Shown: in pieces, positions 5,083-63,035 of the stretch
Layout of the letters: each line of letters starts with the position of its first letter
Position numbering within the stretch: the first letter of the stretch is position 1
From: Eledone cirrhosa
Lineage: Eukaryota
Reading direction: 5' to 3'
Assembly (NCBI GenBank): GCA_964016885.1
Contig: OZ024742.1
Location: 175,460,001-175,524,000 of the forward strand
Length of the DNA: 64,000 nucleotides
The notes under the pieces: generated by a model
Databases searched by the model: none
What the model saw: only the letters and a program-made list of their open reading frames with translations
What the model was told of the DNA's origin: nothing
Translations under genes and position numbers: made by a program

Positions 5083-5433
5083 TTATATATATATATATAC
5101 ACATATAACATATACATATATATATACATATAACATATACATATACATACATATACATACATACATATATATACATATACATATATGTACATACATATAT
5201 ACATATATATACATACACATACACATATATTTACATCCAAACCACCTGCATAGACACATACATATATACCTATATATATATATAGTTTGGTTGACAATTA
5301 TACTAATGTGCATAGACACACAGATACATTGTCCTTGGAATGACAGTGTGGTTTTAGCTCAATGTAGGATAACTAGTATACTACAGACCTGTTATAAGTT
5401 AGGAATAACCAAAGAGTTCTTAGAAACACATTG

Positions 5434-5493
5434 TTTTATTTGCTAACAGTGTTTCATCCATACTCTAGGACAGGAATCATCAGAGCCTATAAA
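5434..5493 (-). ncRNA. Minimal type I hammerhead ribozyme (family B)
   Basis: Minus strand reads GCU-CUGAUGA-UUCC...GGAU-GAAAC-ACU-GUU-AGC. Stem I can extend with UUUAU/AUAAA. Confidence 0.6.
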
Positions 5494-6300
5494 CAAAAGT
5501 ATATCAAAGGTTGCAGGTTCCATCGAGCCTAGTCACCAGAACAATGAAGAAGGACAAGTATTGGGGGCACACAATACATGATACATATAATTTCATAAAA
5601 AATTACATTATAAAAAATTACGTCAAAGGTTTATCACATAAATGGCACAATAGATCATAAGGAGGTTGAGAGAGGAGAGCAAGAAATGAATGAGGGTGTT
5701 ACTCAGCATGATCAAAAAACAAACGAAGAATAGATACATCAATTGACAAGCAGTGCAAGAACATGATTTACAGGCAGAGTATGAAAGCTTCTAAGCAGGA
5801 GTCAGTAAACAGAAAAGTTGGTTAGCTGTGGTGCAGCTTTACAGGCAGGATTGTTTATAGTAAAAATGGTGCACTCCAGTAGAATCGCCTTGTAACAGGT
5901 TGATTTCTCCATATCCGGCCATGACCCTCTATCCATTAATTCTAGTTCCAAGTGTTAGGCGACATAAAACCAGGTTTCCAAATACACGCATAGAGGATCC
6001 TTCCACAGAGGCAGTCTGCAACGAACACGTTAAACCCAAAACATTACAATGAAATGAGGTAAAGCAGAGCACATGCACTGCCGGCACTCCAATGAAGGAA
6101 GAGGAATCATTTCTTTCTCTCCTCTCCCAACCTCCTTATGATCTATTGTACCCTTTATGTGATAAACTTTTGACGTAATATTTTACGATGTAATTTTTTG
6201 TGACCTTATATGTATCATGTATTTTGTGCCCCCTACTTGTCCTTCTTCCTTGTTCTGATGTCTAGGCCCAATGGAGCCGGCAACCTTTGATATACTTTTG

Positions 6301-6360
6301 TTTATAGGCTCTGATGATTCCTGCCCTAGGGTATGGATGAAACACTGTTAGCAAATAAAA
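6301..6360 (+). ncRNA. Minimal type I hammerhead ribozyme (family B)
   Basis: UUUAUAG-GCU-CUGAUGA-U-UCC-UGCCCUAGGGUAU-GGA-U-GAAAC-ACU-GUU-AGC-AAAUAAAA, with a 2-bp stem III and a GUU cleavage triplet. Confidence 0.65.
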
Positions 6361-6411
6361 CAATGTATTTCTAAGCACTCTTTGGTTATTCCTAAACTTA
6401 TATATATATAT

Positions 6412-9120: not shown

Positions 9121-9428
9121 CAAGCATGGCTTAGTGGTTAGAGCATTGGCCTTCCAATCGAAAGGTTGTGAGTTCAATTCTCAGACTGGATGATGTGTTT
9201 TTTCCTTGAGCAAGACACTTTATTTCACATTGCTCCAGTTTACTCAGCTGTAGAAATGAGATGATAGGACTGGGTCCCTATCATTCCACTGCTAAGCACC
9301 CAGAACGCACTGTAAATGAGGTTGGTGTTAGGAAGGGCATCCAGCTGTAGAAATCAAGCCAAAACCACTTCCCGTCCCATTCTTGCAAGCAGGGAAAAGA
9401 GGACGTAAAATGATGATGATTATGATGA
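9121..9428 (+). mobile_element. tRNA-derived SINE family B with RTE-like tail
   Basis: tggcttagtggttagagc (A box), gagttcaattc (B box), central ccttgagcaagacactttatttcacattgctccagt, and tail ggacgtaaaatgatgatgat. Confidence 0.9.
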
Positions 9429-12166: not shown

Positions 12167-12209
<43 letters not shown>

Positions 12210-12224
12210 GTTTTAATACAGATG

Positions 12225-12275
12225 AGATTCTACAGCACTAGAACTGTTTCATTCTTTAGAAATCATCAGGAATCT
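12225..12275 (-). ncRNA. Type I hammerhead ribozyme (family A)
   Basis: Minus strand reads AGAUUC-CUGAUGA-UUUCUAAAGAAU-GAAACAG-UUCUAGUG-CUGUA-GAAUCU, in sense with the Penelope ORF. Confidence 0.85.
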
Positions 12276-12767
12276 GGGTATCAACAAATAAGTATGGTAT
12301 TTATAGGTCTCTTCAAGTGGTAGGAGAGGGTAGGGAGTGGGATGGGTGTAGGTCATTGGTTGATAGAAAAGGGAATTCATTAAAAGCTAATTCTTCAAAG
12401 CTATAGTTTATTTTTAAATTAACAAAGGCAGAAAGAATTCTATAAACAATTTCAAGATGGGGTGCCACTCCTTATTTTTAGGTTTCTCTTAAGCTAACAG
12501 GTGTCTATAGGATCAGTGGGGGTCGGCCATGGTTGATGGATTTAAAGGAAAGGGAGATTCTTTAAAAGCTAAATTCTTTAATGTTCTACTAAATGAAAAA
12601 GGCCTAGAGAATTCTGTAGACAAATTCAAAATATTGAGTGAATATCATAAGATTATCTTCAAATTTCTCTTAAGCTATTCAACTATATGCCAAAAATCAA
12701 CGGACACATTCACAAACACACTCACTCACACACTCGTGCACACCCACAAACACCCACACATACATAT

Positions 12768-12812
<45 letters not shown>

Positions 12813-12827
12813 TATATACATATATAT

Positions 12828-12872
<45 letters not shown>

Positions 12873-12944
12873 TATATATACATATTTACACACACATATA
12901 CACATATATACACACATACACACATATATATACACACATACACC

Positions 12945-12981
<37 letters not shown>

Positions 12982-13116
12982 GATATATGTATGTATGTAT
13001 ATACACAAACATACACACACATATATATATACACATACATATATTCACACACATATACATATATATATATATACATACATATATATATATATATACAAAC
13101 ATACATATACACACAT

Positions 13117-13150
<34 letters not shown>

Positions 13151-13336
13151 ACACAAATATGCAAACACATACGTACACATATACACACATACATATACAT
13201 AAATAAATATATATACATATATATATATATACACATATATATATATATATATACATATATATATACACACATATATATATACACACACACACACACACAT
13301 ACACACATACACCTACATATACACATATACACACAT

Positions 13337-13381
<45 letters not shown>

Positions 13382-13389
13382 TATATATA

Positions 13390-13717
13390 TATCTATCAAG
13401 AAATAAATATATAGACAGACTGAATAAAAGATGGCGTAGACATACAACACAACAGGAGGAAAAAATATAACACCACTGACGATGTTGCAGATGTGCAACG
13501 AAAGATTTATGTAAATTATGTAAACTATATATATGTGTTTGTGTCTATATTGTATCTGTATTATTTTTGACCGTCGGTCAGTGAATGGCAACATTGAGGA
13601 CCGATTAAGTTAGATCGCAGATATAAAAGACAGCGAGAAGCGAAAACCAACCAAACAGTGAGTGTGTTCTGTTATTAATTCTGGCAATATTACTCAAATA
13701 TGACCCTCCCCAAGTAA

Positions 13718-13721
<4 letters not shown>
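13390..13721 (+). mobile_element. Solo pseudo-LTR of a second PLE family (related to 58290-58540)
   Basis: Shares aagatggcgtag, a CTGANGA...CGAAAGA motif and terminal atgaccctccc.aagta with the 3' end of the 57421-58540 element. Embedded in (TA)n. Confidence 0.65.
13471..13512 (+). ncRNA. Hammerhead-like motif (family D, extra nucleotide after core)
   Basis: CUGACGA-U-GUUGCA-GAUG-UGCAAC-GAAA with a perfect 6-bp stem II. Stems I and III are weak. Confidence 0.4.
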
Positions 13722-13762
<41 letters not shown>

Positions 13763-13877
13763 AATGTGAACACATACATACATACACATACACATATACA
13801 CACATATATATACACACACATATATATACACACATATACACACACATACACACACATACACACACATACACACACAT

Positions 13878-13934
<57 letters not shown>

Positions 13935-13989
13935 CACAAATATATACATATATATATACATACACATATATATACATACATATATAGAC

Positions 13990-14024
<35 letters not shown>

Positions 14025-14214
14025 TATACATATACATACATACACATATACACATATATATACATATACACACATACACATACATATATATACACATATA
14101 CACACACATATACATATACACATACATGTATATATATAAATATATACATATACACATACACATATACATAGATATACATACACATACATAATATATAGAT
14201 ATATATACATATAT

Positions 14215-14245
<31 letters not shown>

Positions 14246-14494
14246 CATACACACATATACTCATATATATATATATATATATATACATATATATATACAT
14301 ATATATATATATATACATACACACACACACACACACATATATACACACATATATATAAATAAATAAATAAATAAATACACACACAGAGAGAACCACACAA
14401 ACACATACACACAAATATATATACACACACACACCCACACACAGACACACACACATATATACACACACATATATTCACACATACACACACACAC

Positions 14495-14527
<33 letters not shown>

Positions 14528-14532
14528 CATAT

Positions 14533-14613
<81 letters not shown>

Positions 14614-14819
14614 TACATACATATACATACACACATACATACACATATACATATATACACAAATATATACACATACAAATAAATACTCAATAAATATACG
14701 CATATACACAGGCACATAAACACAGCTCTACAGGCAGAAAATGCAGATAGGTATTTCAGGTTGAGGAGAGGTGTGTGGGGTGGGAACGAGGTATAGGAGC
14801 TAATAGGAGGAGGTCGTTT

Positions 14820-16130
14820 TTAGCCATCGGGCTTTAACACTGGCTTAAAGTATTTGAAAGTTGCAAAGTTCTTGTGCATGCAGTTCGGGCAGTGTTCAGA
14901 GAGTTTGTTCAGTAGCGGGTCCTTGGCGAATACCATTTCGTAGCTCTCTGAGATACAAAGGTCGCAGCCCTTTGTCCTCCGTTGTAAGAGCGCGCTTTCT
15001 GGAGTATTTTCCATTTAAGCGTGAAGGGGCTGGAGTTCCTTTTGAGGTCCCAAACATAGGAGGCGAGTGTTGTCTGGTTTGATTTGTCCGGTCTTCTGAA
15101 GGAGTGGGTATGGGCATACCAATGGGTCTTAAAGTTATTGGAGGTCATGCCGATGTAAGTTTTTTTGTTATTGCGATCATCGGTGCCTGAGATGACATCG
15201 CATTTGTATACGATATGATTTGTGAGGCATTTGTTTTCAAGTGGGCATACTTTCTTATTTAGGCAATTACTCAAAGCCCCAGTCCGGGGATTGTGTTCGG
15301 AGGTTGTTGGCTTATTTAATTTTTTAGAATTGTGGTTGGCTATATTCCCAGCTAGGTTAGGTGTGGTGGAGTAGGAGAGTCTTATTGTGTTCTTATTAAA
15401 GATGGTGTGGTACCTATGTTGTACGGGGAAGTGTAATTTCAGCAAAGTGAAGAAAATCCTAGCTATCTGTGTAGAGACCTCTCTATTGAAGGGAGGGTTG
15501 TACCAGCTAATCTGCCTATGCCTATTCCTCCTCTGCAACTTGCGGTGGTTTCTAGGTTGGTTATCTTTTCTTTAAATCCGCTGCGGGCGAGGGCGTCATT
15601 GTAGTACGAGGCAGAGGCGTTAAAAATATCTTTGTTGGCGGAGAGGCCAGATATTCTAATAGAGACGCTTTTTACTAGGTTATCAGTGATGTTTTGGGGG
15701 TCGTTTGAATTAACAATAATATATCTAAGGGACTCGTTAGGTTTGTGGTACGGGTAATAGAGGGAAGTATCTAGGTCGAGAGTGACATCCAAGAAGTTGG
15801 TCCTAGTTAAATTAGATTCTATAGTTATACTAAATCCTAGATTAGAGAAGAACGAGCTTAAGTTTTTCCGAAATCCATCGGTGGTTCTGGGGTTAACCTT
15901 ATGCAGGGCGAAGAGGACGTCGTCTCGGTATAAACCTCCGGTTAGGCCGGTAAAGAGGTTCTTCGGGTGATGTAGGATGTACAAGCCCACAAGGTCGCTA
16001 ATTTCAGCCGAGTCACTCGCTCCCATGCTAACGTCAAATGGGGTCTGAGATTTCTTGTTGATCCAGTAAGATCCATCGTGGTATAGAAAGGTCTTACGGG
16101 CGTGGAGGATAACAACTTGCTCAGCATCGG
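14820..16130 (-). pseudogene. Penelope-like reverse transcriptase plus GIY-YIG endonuclease (frameshifted)
   Basis: [23 protein letters not shown] (RT catalytic motif), FLDVTLDL, WYNPPF, CPLENKC, IVYKCDV...TYIGMTSNNFK (GIY-YIG), spread over several frames. Confidence 0.92.
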
Positions 16131-16133
16131 TAC

Positions 16134-16209
<76 letters not shown>

Positions 16210-16384
16210 ATATATATGTATACATATCTATATATGTGTGTATGTATGTATGTGTATGTATATCTATGTATATGGGTATGTGTATATGTATATATATATA
16301 TATATATGTATGTGTATGTGTATATGTGTGTATATGTGTATATGTGTATATATATCTATGTGTATGTGTGTATGTGTGTATATG

Positions 16385-16415
<31 letters not shown>

Positions 16416-16473
16416 GTATATGTGTGTGTATATATGTATGTGTATATATATATGTGTGTGTATGTTTGCGTAT

Positions 16474-16523
<50 letters not shown>

Positions 16524-16643
16524 GGTGTATGTGTGTATATATATGTGTGTATGTGTGTATATATGTGTATATGTGTGTGTAAATATGTATATATATGTAT
16601 GTGTATGTGTGTGTGTGTATGTGTATGTATATATATGTATATA

Positions 16644-16702
<59 letters not shown>

Positions 16703-17202
16703 ATATGTATATATGTATGTGTGGGTGTTTGTGGGTGTGCATGAGTGTGTGAGTGAGTGTGTTTGTGAATGTGTCTGTTGATTTTTGGCATATAGTTGAA
16801 TAGTTTAAGAGAAATTTGAAGATAATCTTATGATATGCATTCAATATTTTGAATTTGTCTACAGAATTCTCTAGGCCTTTTTCATTTAGTAGAACATTAA
16901 AGAATTTAGCTTTTAAAGAATCTCCCTTTCCTTTAAATCCATCAACCATGACTGACCCCCATTGATGCTATAGACACCTGTTAGCTTAAGAGAAACCTAA
17001 AAATAAGGAGTGGCACCCCATCTTGAACTTGTTTATAGAATTCTTTCTGCCTTTGTTACTCTAAAAATAAACTATAGCTTTGAAGAATTAGCTTTTAATG
17101 AATTCCCTTTTCTATCAACCAATGACCTACACCCATCCCACTCCCTACCCTCTCCTACCACTTGAAGAGACCTATAAATACCATACTTATTTTTTGATAC
17201 CC

Positions 17203-17253
17203 AGATTCCTGATGATTTCTAAAGAATGAAACAGTTCTAGTCCTGTAGAATCT
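17203..17253 (+). ncRNA. Type I hammerhead ribozyme (family A)
   Basis: AGAUUC(17203-08) CUGAUGA(17209-15) U-UUC-UAAA-GAA-U GAAAC AG-UUCUAGUC-CU GUA(17245-47) GAAUCU. Predicted cleavage after 17247. Confidence 0.88.
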
Positions 17254-17335
17254 CATCTATATTAAAACTTTTATACTCTGCAATGTATTGAGCACCTTAC
17301 TTACTGTGGTTACATCCGATTCAACCCGGAATAAC

Positions 17336-57339: not shown

Positions 57340-57620
57340 TAATATACATATATATATATCGTTTCTGAATTTGTTTAGCAAGATTCTTTATCTGAAAACG
57401 TATGTTGAAACCGATATTGTTATACTTTGGGAGGGTCATGTTGCCAATAAGAAACAGAGTATATAGAGGAGCCAGAACCAAATGGGAAAAAATGGTAAAT
57501 AATGACACAAATTGGACCTGCCCTTTGTATAGGAGCAAATTTTGGAATAGAATAGAAAGAACTAGGAATAAGTCTAATAGAATAAACTCATAGTATGATA
57601 GCAATAAATACCAGAGTGTA

Positions 57621-58154
57621 ATGTTCATCGATACAACCCCTAGAGGTGAATTAGCTTACAAATTTAGAAGGGCCCTAGATAAACATAAACTCAATATTAA
57701 GATAGTAGAAAGTCCAGGTACCTCCATAAAAACACTTATTAGCAATACATACCCTTTTCAAAGACCTCCCTGTATAGATAAGAAATGTATAATCTCTAAA
57801 TTAAGCCCCTATATTAACTGTAAAACTAGAAATGTAGTATATAGCATAAGATGTACTGAAGGACAATGTAGAGATAAGAATATAGTGTACATAGGTGAGA
57901 CAGCTCGTAGTATAGGGGAACGGATAAATGAACACTGGCGAGACCTTCAAGATAGTAAAGAATCATCTGTACTCTACCAACATGCTAAAATAGAATATAA
58001 GGGTAAATTACAGAACGTAGAAATAAAAATAGAATATACACACAGAAAAGACGCAATGCTTAGACAAATCACAGAGGCAATAAACATAAATGCACTCCAA
58101 CCAAAATTAAATAGAAAACATGAATGGAACAGCAACATCACAACTTACAATTAA
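57621..58154 (+). CDS. Penelope-like C-terminal GIY-YIG endonuclease (open fragment, 177 aa)
   Basis: NCKTRNVVYSIRC...IVYIGETARSIGERINEH...RQITEAINI...LNRKHEW. Confidence 0.85.
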   Translation: MFIDTTPRGELAYKFRRALDKHKLNIKIVESPGTSIKTLISNTYPFQRPPCIDKKCIISKLSPYINCKTRNVVYSIRCTEGQCRDKNIVYIGETARSIGERINEHWRDLQDSKESSVLYQHAKIEYKGKLQNVEIKIEYTHRKDAMLRQITEAININALQPKLNRKHEWNSNITTYN

Positions 58155-58354: not shown

Positions 58355-58395
58355 TCACTGAAGAGGTCACATAGTGTGTGGCGAAAGAACTTTGA
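58355..58395 (+). ncRNA. Hammerhead-like motif (family D)
   Basis: UCA-CUGAAGA-G-GUCACAU-AGU-GUGUGGC-GAAAG-AA-CUU-UGA in the 3' terminal repeat of the PLE. Confidence 0.5.
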
Positions 58396-60410: not shown

Positions 60411-60424
60411 AAGAATATATATAT

Positions 60425-60455
<31 letters not shown>

Positions 60456-60584
60456 AACGGAAAATATGAAACGAAATTTCATTTCCCACTCTTAGTACGG
60501 CTGTTACTTAAATATAAGTATGTACACGTACATACATATATGTATACAGACGTACAGTAGTACGTATATATATATACATACATG

Positions 60585-60627
<43 letters not shown>

Positions 60628-60747
60628 GTACGCATGGATTCACCAAACATTTATTATAATGCTCAGTGTGTTTGTAAACAAACATCCCATATTAAGCCGT
60701 AGTGCCAGCAACAATCGTTGCTCGTTTGTTCAACACTGACAAAATAA

Positions 60748-60788
60748 CGCTGTACTAGTTTCAAGCTTATTAGCTATCGTCAGCAACG
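60748..60788 (-). ncRNA. Minimal type I hammerhead ribozyme (family C)
   Basis: CGUUG-CUGACGA-U-AGCU-AAUA-AGCU-U-GAAAC-UA-GUA-CAGCG. Confidence 0.85.
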
Positions 60789-61171
60789 TATACTTTCCTG
60801 CCAGATTGTTGATCGTATATACTTACCTTATGCATATTAACGGCTGAGTAGCCCAATTTGCATATCGAGTGGGTTAATCGGCCGGGTGCACCGAAAACGA
60901 TAAACGGAAAAAATGAAACGAAATTTCATTTCCCACTCTTAGTACGGCTGTTACTTACATATAAGTATGTACACGTACATACATATATGTATATAGACGT
61001 ACAGTAGTATGTATATATATATACATACATGCAAACATATATATATATGTACGTATGGATTCACCGAACATTTATTATAATGCTCGGTGTGTTTGTAAAC
61101 AAACATCCCGTACTAAGCGTAGTGTCCAGCAACCATCGTTGCTCGTTTGTTCAACACTGCTGACAAAGGAA

Positions 61172-61212
61172 CGCTGTACTAATTTCAAGCTTATTAGCTA
61201 TCGTCAGCAACG
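61172..61212 (-). ncRNA. Minimal type I hammerhead ribozyme (family C; GAAAU variant)
   Basis: Same motif with GAAAC changed to GAAAU, leaving a G-U pair in stem III. Confidence 0.7.
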
Positions 61213-61594
61213 TATACCTTCCTGCCAGATTGTTGAACGTATATACTTATCTTATGCATAATAACGGCTGAGTAGCCCAGTTTGCATATCGAGTGGGTTA
61301 ATCGGCCGGGTGCACCGAAAACGATAAACGGAAAAAATGAAACGAAATTTCATTTCCCACTCTTAGTACGGCTGTTACTTACATATAAGTATGTACACGT
61401 ACATACATATATGTATATAGACGTACAGTAGTATGTATATATATATACATACATGCAAACATATATATATGTACGTATGGATTCACCGAACATTTATTAT
61501 AATGCTCGGTGTGTTTGTAAACAAACATCCCGTACTAAGCCGTAGTGTCCAGCAACCATCGTTGCTCGTTTGTTCAACACTGCTGACAAAGGAA

Positions 61595-61635
61595 CGCTGT
61601 ACTAGTTTCAAGCTTATTAGCTATCGTCAGCAACG
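61595..61635 (-). ncRNA. Minimal type I hammerhead ribozyme (family C)
   Basis: Identical to the 60748-60788 motif. Confidence 0.85.
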
Positions 61636-62176
61636 TATACCTTCCTGCCAGATTGTTGAACGTATATACTTATCTTATGCATAATAACGGCTGAGTAGCC
61701 CAATTTGCATATCGAGTGGGTTAATTGGCCGGGTGCACCGAAAACGATAAACGGAAAAAATGAAACGAAATTTCATTTGCCACTCTTAGTACGGCTGTTA
61801 CTTAAATATAAGTATGTACACGTACATACATATATGTATACAGACGTACAGTAGTATGTATATATATATATACATACATGCACACATATATATATATGTA
61901 CGTATGGATTCACCGAACATTTATTCTAATGCTGGGTGTGTTTGTAAACAAACATCCCGTATTAAGCCGTAGTGTCCAGCAACCATCGTTGCTCGTTTGT
62001 TCAACACTGACAAAGGAACGTACTAAGAGTGGGAAATGAAATTTTGTTTTATTTTTTCCGTTTATCGTTTTCGGTGCACCCGGCCGATTAACCCACTCGA
62101 TATGCAAATTGGGCTACTCAGCCGTTAATATACATAAGGTAAATATATACGTTCAACAATCTGGTAGGAAACTATA

Positions 62177-62217
62177 CGTTGCTGACGATAGCTAATAAGC
62201 TTGAAACTAGTACAGCG
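62177..62217 (+). ncRNA. Minimal type I hammerhead ribozyme (family C)
   Basis: cgttg ctgacga tagctaataagctt gaaac ta gta cagcg read directly on the + strand. Confidence 0.87.
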
Positions 62218-62594
62218 TTCCTTTGTCAGTGTTGAACAAACGAGAAACGATGGTTGCTGGACACTACGGCTTAATACGGGATGTTTGTTTACAAACACAC
62301 CGAGCATTATCATAAATGTTCGGTGAATCCATAAGTACATATATATATGTGTGCATGTATGTATATATATATATACATACTACTGTACGTCTGTATACAT
62401 ATATGTATGTACGTGTACATACTTATATTTAAGTAACAGCCGTACTAAGAGTGGGAAATGAAAGTTCGTTTCATTTTTTCCGTTTATTGTTTTCGGTGCA
62501 CCCGGCCGACTAACCCACTCGATATGCAAATTGGGCTACTCAGCCGTTAATATGCATAAGGTATATACGTTCAACAGTCTGGCAGGAAGGTATA

Positions 62595-62635
62595 CGTTGC
62601 TGACGATATCTAATAAGCTTGAAACTAGTACAGCG
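62595..62635 (+). ncRNA. Minimal type I hammerhead ribozyme (family C; stem II mismatch)
   Basis: cgttg ctgacga tatctaataagctt gaaac ta gta cagcg. Confidence 0.7.
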
Positions 62636-62876
62636 TTCCTTTGTCAGTGTTGAACAAACGAGCAACGATGGTTGCTGGACACTACGGCTTAATACGGGAT
62701 GTTTGTTTACAAACACACCGAGCATTATAATAAATGTTCGGTGAATCCATACGTACATATATATATGTGTGCATGTATGTATATATATATATATATACAT
62801 ACTACTGTACGTGTCTGTACGTGTGTATACATATATGTATGTTCGTGTACATACTTATATTTATATATATATATAC

Positions 62877-62929
<53 letters not shown>

Positions 62930-63035
62930 CATATACACATATATATATATACACATATATATATACATATACACATACATATACACATATATATACACAT
63001 ATATATACACATATATACACATTTATATATATTGC

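What the first reader, a model, noticed from the sequence alone, without database searches (positions are those of the whole stretch)
62005..62035. Array inversion junction falls 3 nt from the predicted ribozyme cleavage site
Seen: the fourth left-hand unit stops at ...caaaggaacg (62020), whereas intact units continue ...ggaacgCTG|TAC, the minus-strand GUA^CAGCG site. The sequence then switches to the inverted unit, sharing only CG at the junction. Inference: reverse transcription ran to the 5' end of a ribozyme-cleaved multimeric RNA and then switched template, producing the 5' inversion. That would be a DNA footprint of in vivo self-cleavage and RNA-mediated insertion, rather than unequal crossing-over.
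Basis: partly seen in the sequence, partly recalled or inferred. Interest (0 to 1): 0.75.

Follow-up and report, generated by a model that had tools for sequence, protein, structure and literature searches.

The report
Seam of two-armed Penelope-type retrozyme insertion
This junction is the middle seam of a back-to-back insertion of a small repeat that carries a predicted self-cutting RNA motif and was likely copied in from both ends of a DNA cut by a Penelope-type enzyme; such seams do not cluster at the predicted cut site in other copies, so its closeness to that site here is most likely chance.

Summary
In detail: the left arm's 5' end lies 3-5 nt from the predicted hammerhead cut site, with a 2-nt CG overlap. 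In 182 independent head-to-head junctions of this 422-nt family, 11 have an end within about 5 nt of the site, against 8.8 expected (p=0.27); 309 of 318 passes run through it. A genome-wide count gives 1.2 times a control site (CI 0.7-2.0). What is fixed is the outer (3') ends: one arm at unit position ~219, the other at 275, both in (TA)n. An intact Penelope-like element in this genome also has two ends about 53 nt apart. So this is a non-LTR retrozyme likely inserted by two-ended, Penelope-type reverse transcription of an uncut or circular RNA, joined by microhomology. RNA-mediated insertion is supported; in vivo self-cleavage is not shown. One lead: arms starting at 275 stop preferentially after one unit length (replicated, p=0.02). 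The junction could not be confirmed in reads. The scan already reported this architecture on other DNA of this genome.

The parts
60453..62020 (-). Left arm: 3.65 units, 5' end at u4 (junction), 3' end at fixed site B (u275)
62019..62863 (+). Right arm: about 2 units, 5' end at u229 (junction), 3' end at fixed site A (about u219)
62019..62020 (.). Head-to-head seam with 2-nt microhomology (CG), 3-5 nt from the predicted cut site of the left arm
   Evidence: typical of the family
62176..62217 (+). Type I hammerhead motif, predicted cut between 62212 and 62213; U-U at base of helix II, palindromic 1-2 bp helix III
   Evidence: activity untested; no Rfam hit at gathering score
62594..62635 (+). 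Type I hammerhead motif, one change in helix II; predicted cut between 62630 and 62631
61595..61636 (-). Type I hammerhead motif crossed by the left arm; predicted cut between 61600 and 61599
61172..61213 (-). Type I hammerhead motif crossed by the left arm; predicted cut between 61177 and 61176
60748..60789 (-). Type I hammerhead motif crossed by the left arm; predicted cut between 60753 and 60752
60950..61790 (-). Two near-identical consecutive unit-length blocks (approximate limits), likely a later tandem duplication
   Evidence: shared 3-nt insertion and SNPs in L2/L3 and L3/L4; 98% pair 61118-61417 / 61541-61840
60413..60452 (.). (TA)n target, left flank
62864..63032 (.). (TA)n target, right flank; a target-site duplication cannot be read inside the microsatellite

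Best explanation
The junction is the seam where two oppositely oriented, 5'-truncated arms of a 422-nt hammerhead repeat meet in a (TA)n tract, likely made when a Penelope-type enzyme primed reverse transcription from both cut DNA ends at two fixed RNA sites 56 nt apart, and its position next to the predicted cut site is likely chance. Shown: arm geometry, two fixed 3' ends, scattered 5' ends, microhomology, arms running through the cut site. Inferred: the enzyme is a Penelope-like RT/GIY-YIG protein; both arms come from one RNA or source locus; the template was not cut at the hammerhead when copied (an uncut multimer or a re-ligated circle); the two cDNAs were joined by microhomology-mediated end joining.
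For: No excess of 5' ends at the site: 11 vs 8.8 in 182 junctions (352 ends), 13 vs 11.5 with solo arms; 318 passes enter the window and 309 leave it; 301 of 495 arms run more than 10 nt past the site. Strict A+B set, 112 junctions: 6 vs 5.4, 95% upper excess 4% of passes, uniformity p=0.15. Genome-wide: 69 vs 35 raw matches, 20 of 30 vs 23 of 30 inspected were true ends, normalised ratio 1.22 (CI 0.74-2.03). Fixed ends: of 128 inversions anchored at B the partner ends at A in 90, B in 6, elsewhere in 32; of 54 anchored at A the partner ends at B in 41, A in 0, elsewhere in 13. Microhomology: mean 3.7 nt in 70 flush junctions vs 0.75 for random joins; 37 more carry inserted bases. Arms of one insertion differ by 3.6% vs 5.5% between insertions, 41 pairs. 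An RT + GIY-YIG element with mostly 775-aa open frames is abundant here, has a minimal hammerhead and two 3' ends into (TA)n: 6 of 18 at +127-129, 11 of 18 at about +182, 1 other; L468 has one arm of each. Two internal RT starts cutting both strands were shown in vitro for an anole Penelope-like element (PMC11167929); inverted 5'-truncated copies, a tail at one end and (TA)n bias are described Penelope-like features (PMC8557442).
Against: The one autonomous family examined shares no sequence with the repeat beyond a 19-nt match at E=0.38, so the partner is not identified. The tail here is 56 nt against 30-40 nt in the papers. 45 of 182 partners end at neither fixed site. A small cleavage-derived excess (up to about twofold) is not excluded. 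No significant A>G strand bias as independent proof of an RNA stage (160 vs 137, p=0.07). The junction itself lacks read confirmation.
Confidence: 0.8

Rival explanations
1. One reading: reverse transcriptase ran to the 5' end of a hammerhead-cleaved RNA at this locus, and the seam records that end.
For: The end is 3-5 nt from the site. Point estimates are slightly above 1 (1.25; 1.22), which would make about one in five ends in this window cleavage-derived.
Against: None of four tests is significant. This insertion's own arms cross five predicted cut sites. The inverted arm ends at fixed site A in its own flank. For the anole element, unprocessed RNA was the dominant template and ribozyme mutants did not change insertion (PMC11167929).
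Confidence: 0.12
2. The inversion arose at the DNA level (fold-back, replication template switch or recombination between two neighbouring insertions).
For: Inverted repeats and microsatellites are recombinogenic (general knowledge); part of the left arm does look duplicated at the DNA level.
Against: It does not explain why arms pair A with B in 131 of 182 cases and A with A in none, or why 5' ends of the two arms are unrelated (7 of 107 within 12 nt, 6.3 expected).
Confidence: 0.04
3. This seam is an assembly artefact.
For: No listed contig or read piece spans it.
Against: The arms carry distinct variants, the outer ends are the canonical A and B, and 182 of 350 sampled loci show the same kind of seam, each at a different place. 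The runs are probably other individuals (at most 0.49 of words shared).
Confidence: 0.04

Closest known systems
Metazoan non-LTR retrozymes (PMC7229834, passages and Discussion read; preprint 10.64898/2026.07.22.740005, parts 1-2 of 5 read)
   Same: Non-coding tandem unit with one type I hammerhead per unit, thousands of copies (5150 exact 36-nt cores), co-occurring Penelope-like elements; U-U at the base of helix II as in axolotl HHR_Amex2.
   Different: Unit 422 nt, slightly above the 170-400 nt reported in PMC7229834; expression, cleavage and circles untested here; the parts I read do not describe two fixed ends or head-to-head arms for retrozymes.
Penelope-like element insertions with inverted pLTR and tail (PMC8557442 and PMC3846280, passages; PMC11167929, parts 1-2 of 4)
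   Same: Head-to-head inverted 5'-truncated copy, extension present at one end only, AT-rich or (TA)n targets, microhomology at 5' junctions, two internal RT starts.
   Different: No ORF; tail of 56 nt; no sequence shared with the one autonomous family examined.
L1 twin priming (PMC2837659, search listing only; mechanism recalled)
   Same: Two primers on one RNA give a head-to-head seam closed by microhomology.
   Different: Here the second start is a fixed site 56 nt from the first and both arms can run several units; L1 uses a poly(A) start and a variable internal one.
R2 elements, whose full-length 5' end is set by a self-cleaving ribozyme (recalled; listing only)
   Different: Not seen here: no pile of 5' ends at the cut site.

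Membership tests
Non-LTR retrozyme | Head-to-tail non-coding unit of a few hundred nt | tested here: met
   Period 423; 143 real units, commonest lengths 420-430
Non-LTR retrozyme | One type I hammerhead motif per unit with conserved core | tested here: met
   Five motifs in the window; core intact in 467 of 512 occurrences, overlapping loci counted more than once. No Rfam hit at gathering score; folding recovers helices I and II only
Non-LTR retrozyme | Dispersed high copy number | tested here: met
   5150 exact cores, 7654 exact 23-mers
Non-LTR retrozyme | Self-cleavage of the RNA | not testable with these tools
   Needs in vitro transcription; genomic ends show no trace of it
Non-LTR retrozyme | Expression as linear and circular monomers | not testable with these tools
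   No RNA holder listed
Penelope-type insertion | Inverted 5'-truncated copy, head to head | tested here: met
   182 of 350 loci
Penelope-type insertion | Two fixed 3' ends (tail at one end) | tested here: met
   u219 and u275; same pattern in the autonomous element
Penelope-type insertion | AT-rich or (TA)n target | tested here: met
   3' flanks, loci not selected on flank
Penelope-type insertion | Identified autonomous partner sharing the start signal | tested here: inconclusive
   One family (20 loci) compared, no shared sequence; at least two further families not compared
Ribozyme-defined 5' end (R2-like footprint) | 5' ends of genomic copies pile up at the cleavage site | tested here: not met

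The most novel reading that the evidence does not exclude
The template is a hammerhead-cut and re-ligated monomeric circle, and the genome records it: arms started at site B stop preferentially after one lap (length 385-455 nt: 37 vs 12 in discovery, 9 vs 4.0 in the validation set, 46 vs 20.6 from flanking lengths), when the enzyme returns to its own start, while the ligated cut site is invisible to it. This would be a direct genomic footprint of rolling-circle reverse transcription of a retrozyme circRNA by a two-headed Penelope enzyme. A structured RNA or protein roadblock at u240-330 on an uncut multimer would look similar, and A arms did not replicate the effect.
Probability: 0.35. Interest if true: 0.6.

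Novelty: new member of a known kind. Interest (0 to 1): 0.3.

Why it matters
The specific claim, a DNA footprint of in vivo self-cleavage, does not hold. The negative result still constrains the mechanism: at most a few percent of passes end at the cut site, so linear cleaved RNA is not the usual template, matching the in vitro result for the anole Penelope element. The paired fixed ends, mirrored by an intact Penelope-like element in the same genome, support the long-proposed mobilisation of animal retrozymes by Penelope machinery, and this family is a large natural dataset for it.

Tried and rejected
Rfam scan: no hammerhead at gathering score. Run search: no RNA holder listed. Laying reads on the junction: no listed spanning piece, uninformative. 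The first reference unit (window 62213-62630) caused false piles at u124 and u355 and was replaced by a real medoid copy from L197; piles at u127 and u354-361 in solo arms next to (TA)n remain unreliable. Of four predictions written before validation: no excess at the cut site held; the B one-lap excess held (p=0.021); B arms stopping at site A on first pass (8 vs 2.2 in discovery) did not replicate (2 vs 1.2, p=0.35); A arms stopping at u240-350 (21 vs 13.7) did not replicate (14 vs 14.2). A>G editing bias not significant. A stretch shared with Penelope locus L461 turned out to be a separate repeat fragment in its (TA)n flank, not in the other copies at that place. Rows dropped before counting: L170, L201 (duplicates of L169, L200), L388 (same as L179); 16 loci without a detectable arm and 21 with a direct-orientation neighbour were left out of end counts; 6 arms were censored by locus edges. 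L001-L090 and L264-L270 were not used for statistics because of biased anchors. Search by sequence in earlier findings returned nothing. Supplements of the papers were not opened; those of PMC11167929 (Fig. S2) and the preprint may hold end maps.

Full report
What is there. The region 60453-62863 is one insertion of a 422-nt repeat in a (TA)n tract. Each unit has a type I hammerhead motif with a U-U at the base of helix II and a palindromic 1-2 bp helix III, the form described as needing dimers (PMC4209133, passages). Rfam gave no hit, and cleavage is only predicted. With u1 as the first base after the predicted cut, the left arm reads u4 to u275 on the minus strand over 3.65 units, the right arm u229 to u219 on the plus strand over about 2 units. 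The 5' ends meet head to head and share CG.

The family. The 3.0-Gb genome holds 5150 exact copies of the 36-nt ribozyme core. In the first loci, chosen without regard to ends, 3' ends piled at about u219 (site A) and u275 (site B) and ran into (TA)n.

Test of the claim. I sampled insertions by their 3' end, which does not select on the 5' end. Discovery: all 79 and 95 places, and the first 30 of 143 and of 208, gave 233 loci: 109 inversions, 91 solo, 17 direct, 13 without arm, 3 censored; two duplicates were dropped. Ends in u-4..u6: 6 observed, 5.2-5.9 expected from passes at risk. Predictions were then written down. Validation: all 81 site-A places plus the next 39 regions, one duplicate dropped, 75 inversions: 5 vs 3.6. 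Combined: 11 of 182 junctions, 8.8 expected, p=0.27; 318 passes enter the window and 309 leave it. A strict set of 112 A+B junctions with overlap-extended ends gave 6 vs 5.4, upper 95% excess 4% of passes. A genome-wide pattern for ends at u1-u4 found 69 matches against 35 at a control site; 20 of 30 and 23 of 30 inspected were true ends, and after normalising for core conservation and pass probability the ratio was 1.22, p=0.48, CI 0.74-2.03. So about 6% of seams fall this close by chance, and a modest excess is neither shown nor excluded.

What the data do show. Arms pair A with B: 131 of 182 junctions, B with B 6, A with A 0, other 45. The two 5' ends of a seam are unrelated. Flush seams have 3.7 nt mean microhomology against 0.75 for random joins. 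The arms of one insertion are more alike than arms of different insertions (3.6% vs 5.5%, 41 pairs); in L268 two rare variants occur in every lap that covers them, in both arms, while L264 and L266 alternate with a two-unit period and older arrays are heterogeneous. 301 of 495 arms run past the cut site; the arms here cross five.

The likely enzyme. An ORF beside one locus has RT (below Pfam cut-off) and GIY-YIG (above); 79 scored matches are 98-100% identical, mostly 775-aa open frames. This element has a minimal hammerhead and two 3' ends about 53 nt apart, both into (TA)n (6 and 11 of 18 ends; the later end coincides with where I cut the reference, after which all copies show TA repeats), and L468 has one arm of each. 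It shares no sequence with the repeat, so it is a model, not a proven partner. In vitro, an anole Penelope-like protein cuts and extends both strands, starts at two internal RNA sites that match genomic ends, and uses unprocessed RNA regardless of ribozyme activity (PMC11167929). Inverted 5'-truncated copies, a one-sided tail and (TA)n bias are described for these elements (PMC8557442; PMC3846280). Circular templates and Penelope-like helpers are proposed for retrozymes (PMC7229834 Discussion; PMC4209133; preprint 10.64898/2026.07.22.740005).

Mechanism. Inferred: the enzyme cuts both strands of (TA)n, each DNA end primes cDNA on the same uncut or circular RNA, one at B and one at A, both stop at largely random points, and microhomology joins them. 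Later a unit of the left arm was probably duplicated in DNA.

A remaining lead. B arms stop in excess at 385-455 nt, one unit length: 37 vs 12.1 (window chosen after seeing the data), 9 vs 4.0 in validation, 46 vs 20.6 against flanking lengths. This fits a return to the start on a circle, but also a roadblock at the structured u234-345 region. Two related predictions did not replicate, and no significant editing bias was found.

Limits. The seam was not confirmed in reads. Ends inside the unit's own microsatellite (u120-225) are imprecise. In five paper searches and the parts read I saw no map of retrozyme breakpoints against the cut site; this is not an exhaustive check. Earlier notes of this scan report the same two-armed architecture for this or sister families in this genome; I read them only after my own tests.

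Verdict. Real observation, chance coincidence, ordinary seam of a new member of a known kind. Interest 0.3.

Noticed in passing
window 5393-6402: Another head-to-head pair (298 nt, 91%) with hammerhead-like motifs at 5445-5483 (-) and 6311-6349 (+): a different family with the same two-armed shape.
   Followed up: no
window 12209-17269: Inverted repeats of about 1.2 kb (90%) with hammerhead-like motifs flank a Penelope-like RT remnant at 14945-15870 (similar to the L306 ORF, E=4e-58); a diverged related piece lies at 1904-2321.
   Followed up: partly
window 57450-58118: Penelope-like RT and GIY-YIG fragments (tblastn to the L094 and L247 ORFs), with a hammerhead-like motif at 58358-58392.
   Followed up: no
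L451-L470: Young autonomous Penelope-like family, 775-aa frames, tandem spacing about 4.2 kb and inverted pairs, two fixed 3' ends about 53 nt apart.
   Followed up: partly
L264 1015-5344; L266 1837-3773; L422: Arrays with a two-unit (about 842 nt) higher-order period of variants: a dimeric template or later duplication.
   Followed up: partly
L268, L197, L253, L436: Long, nearly homogeneous young arrays (9-10 laps); L268 shares two rare variants across both arms. Best loci for testing a monomeric circular template.
   Followed up: partly
window 61812 (runs X21, X22): About 19,000 reads per run diverge here into one other sequence, pointing to an abundant sister family that shares u229-275.
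   Followed up: no
window 9125-9188: tRNA-like match just above the Rfam gathering score, probably the head of a SINE (SINE reading is inference).
   Followed up: no
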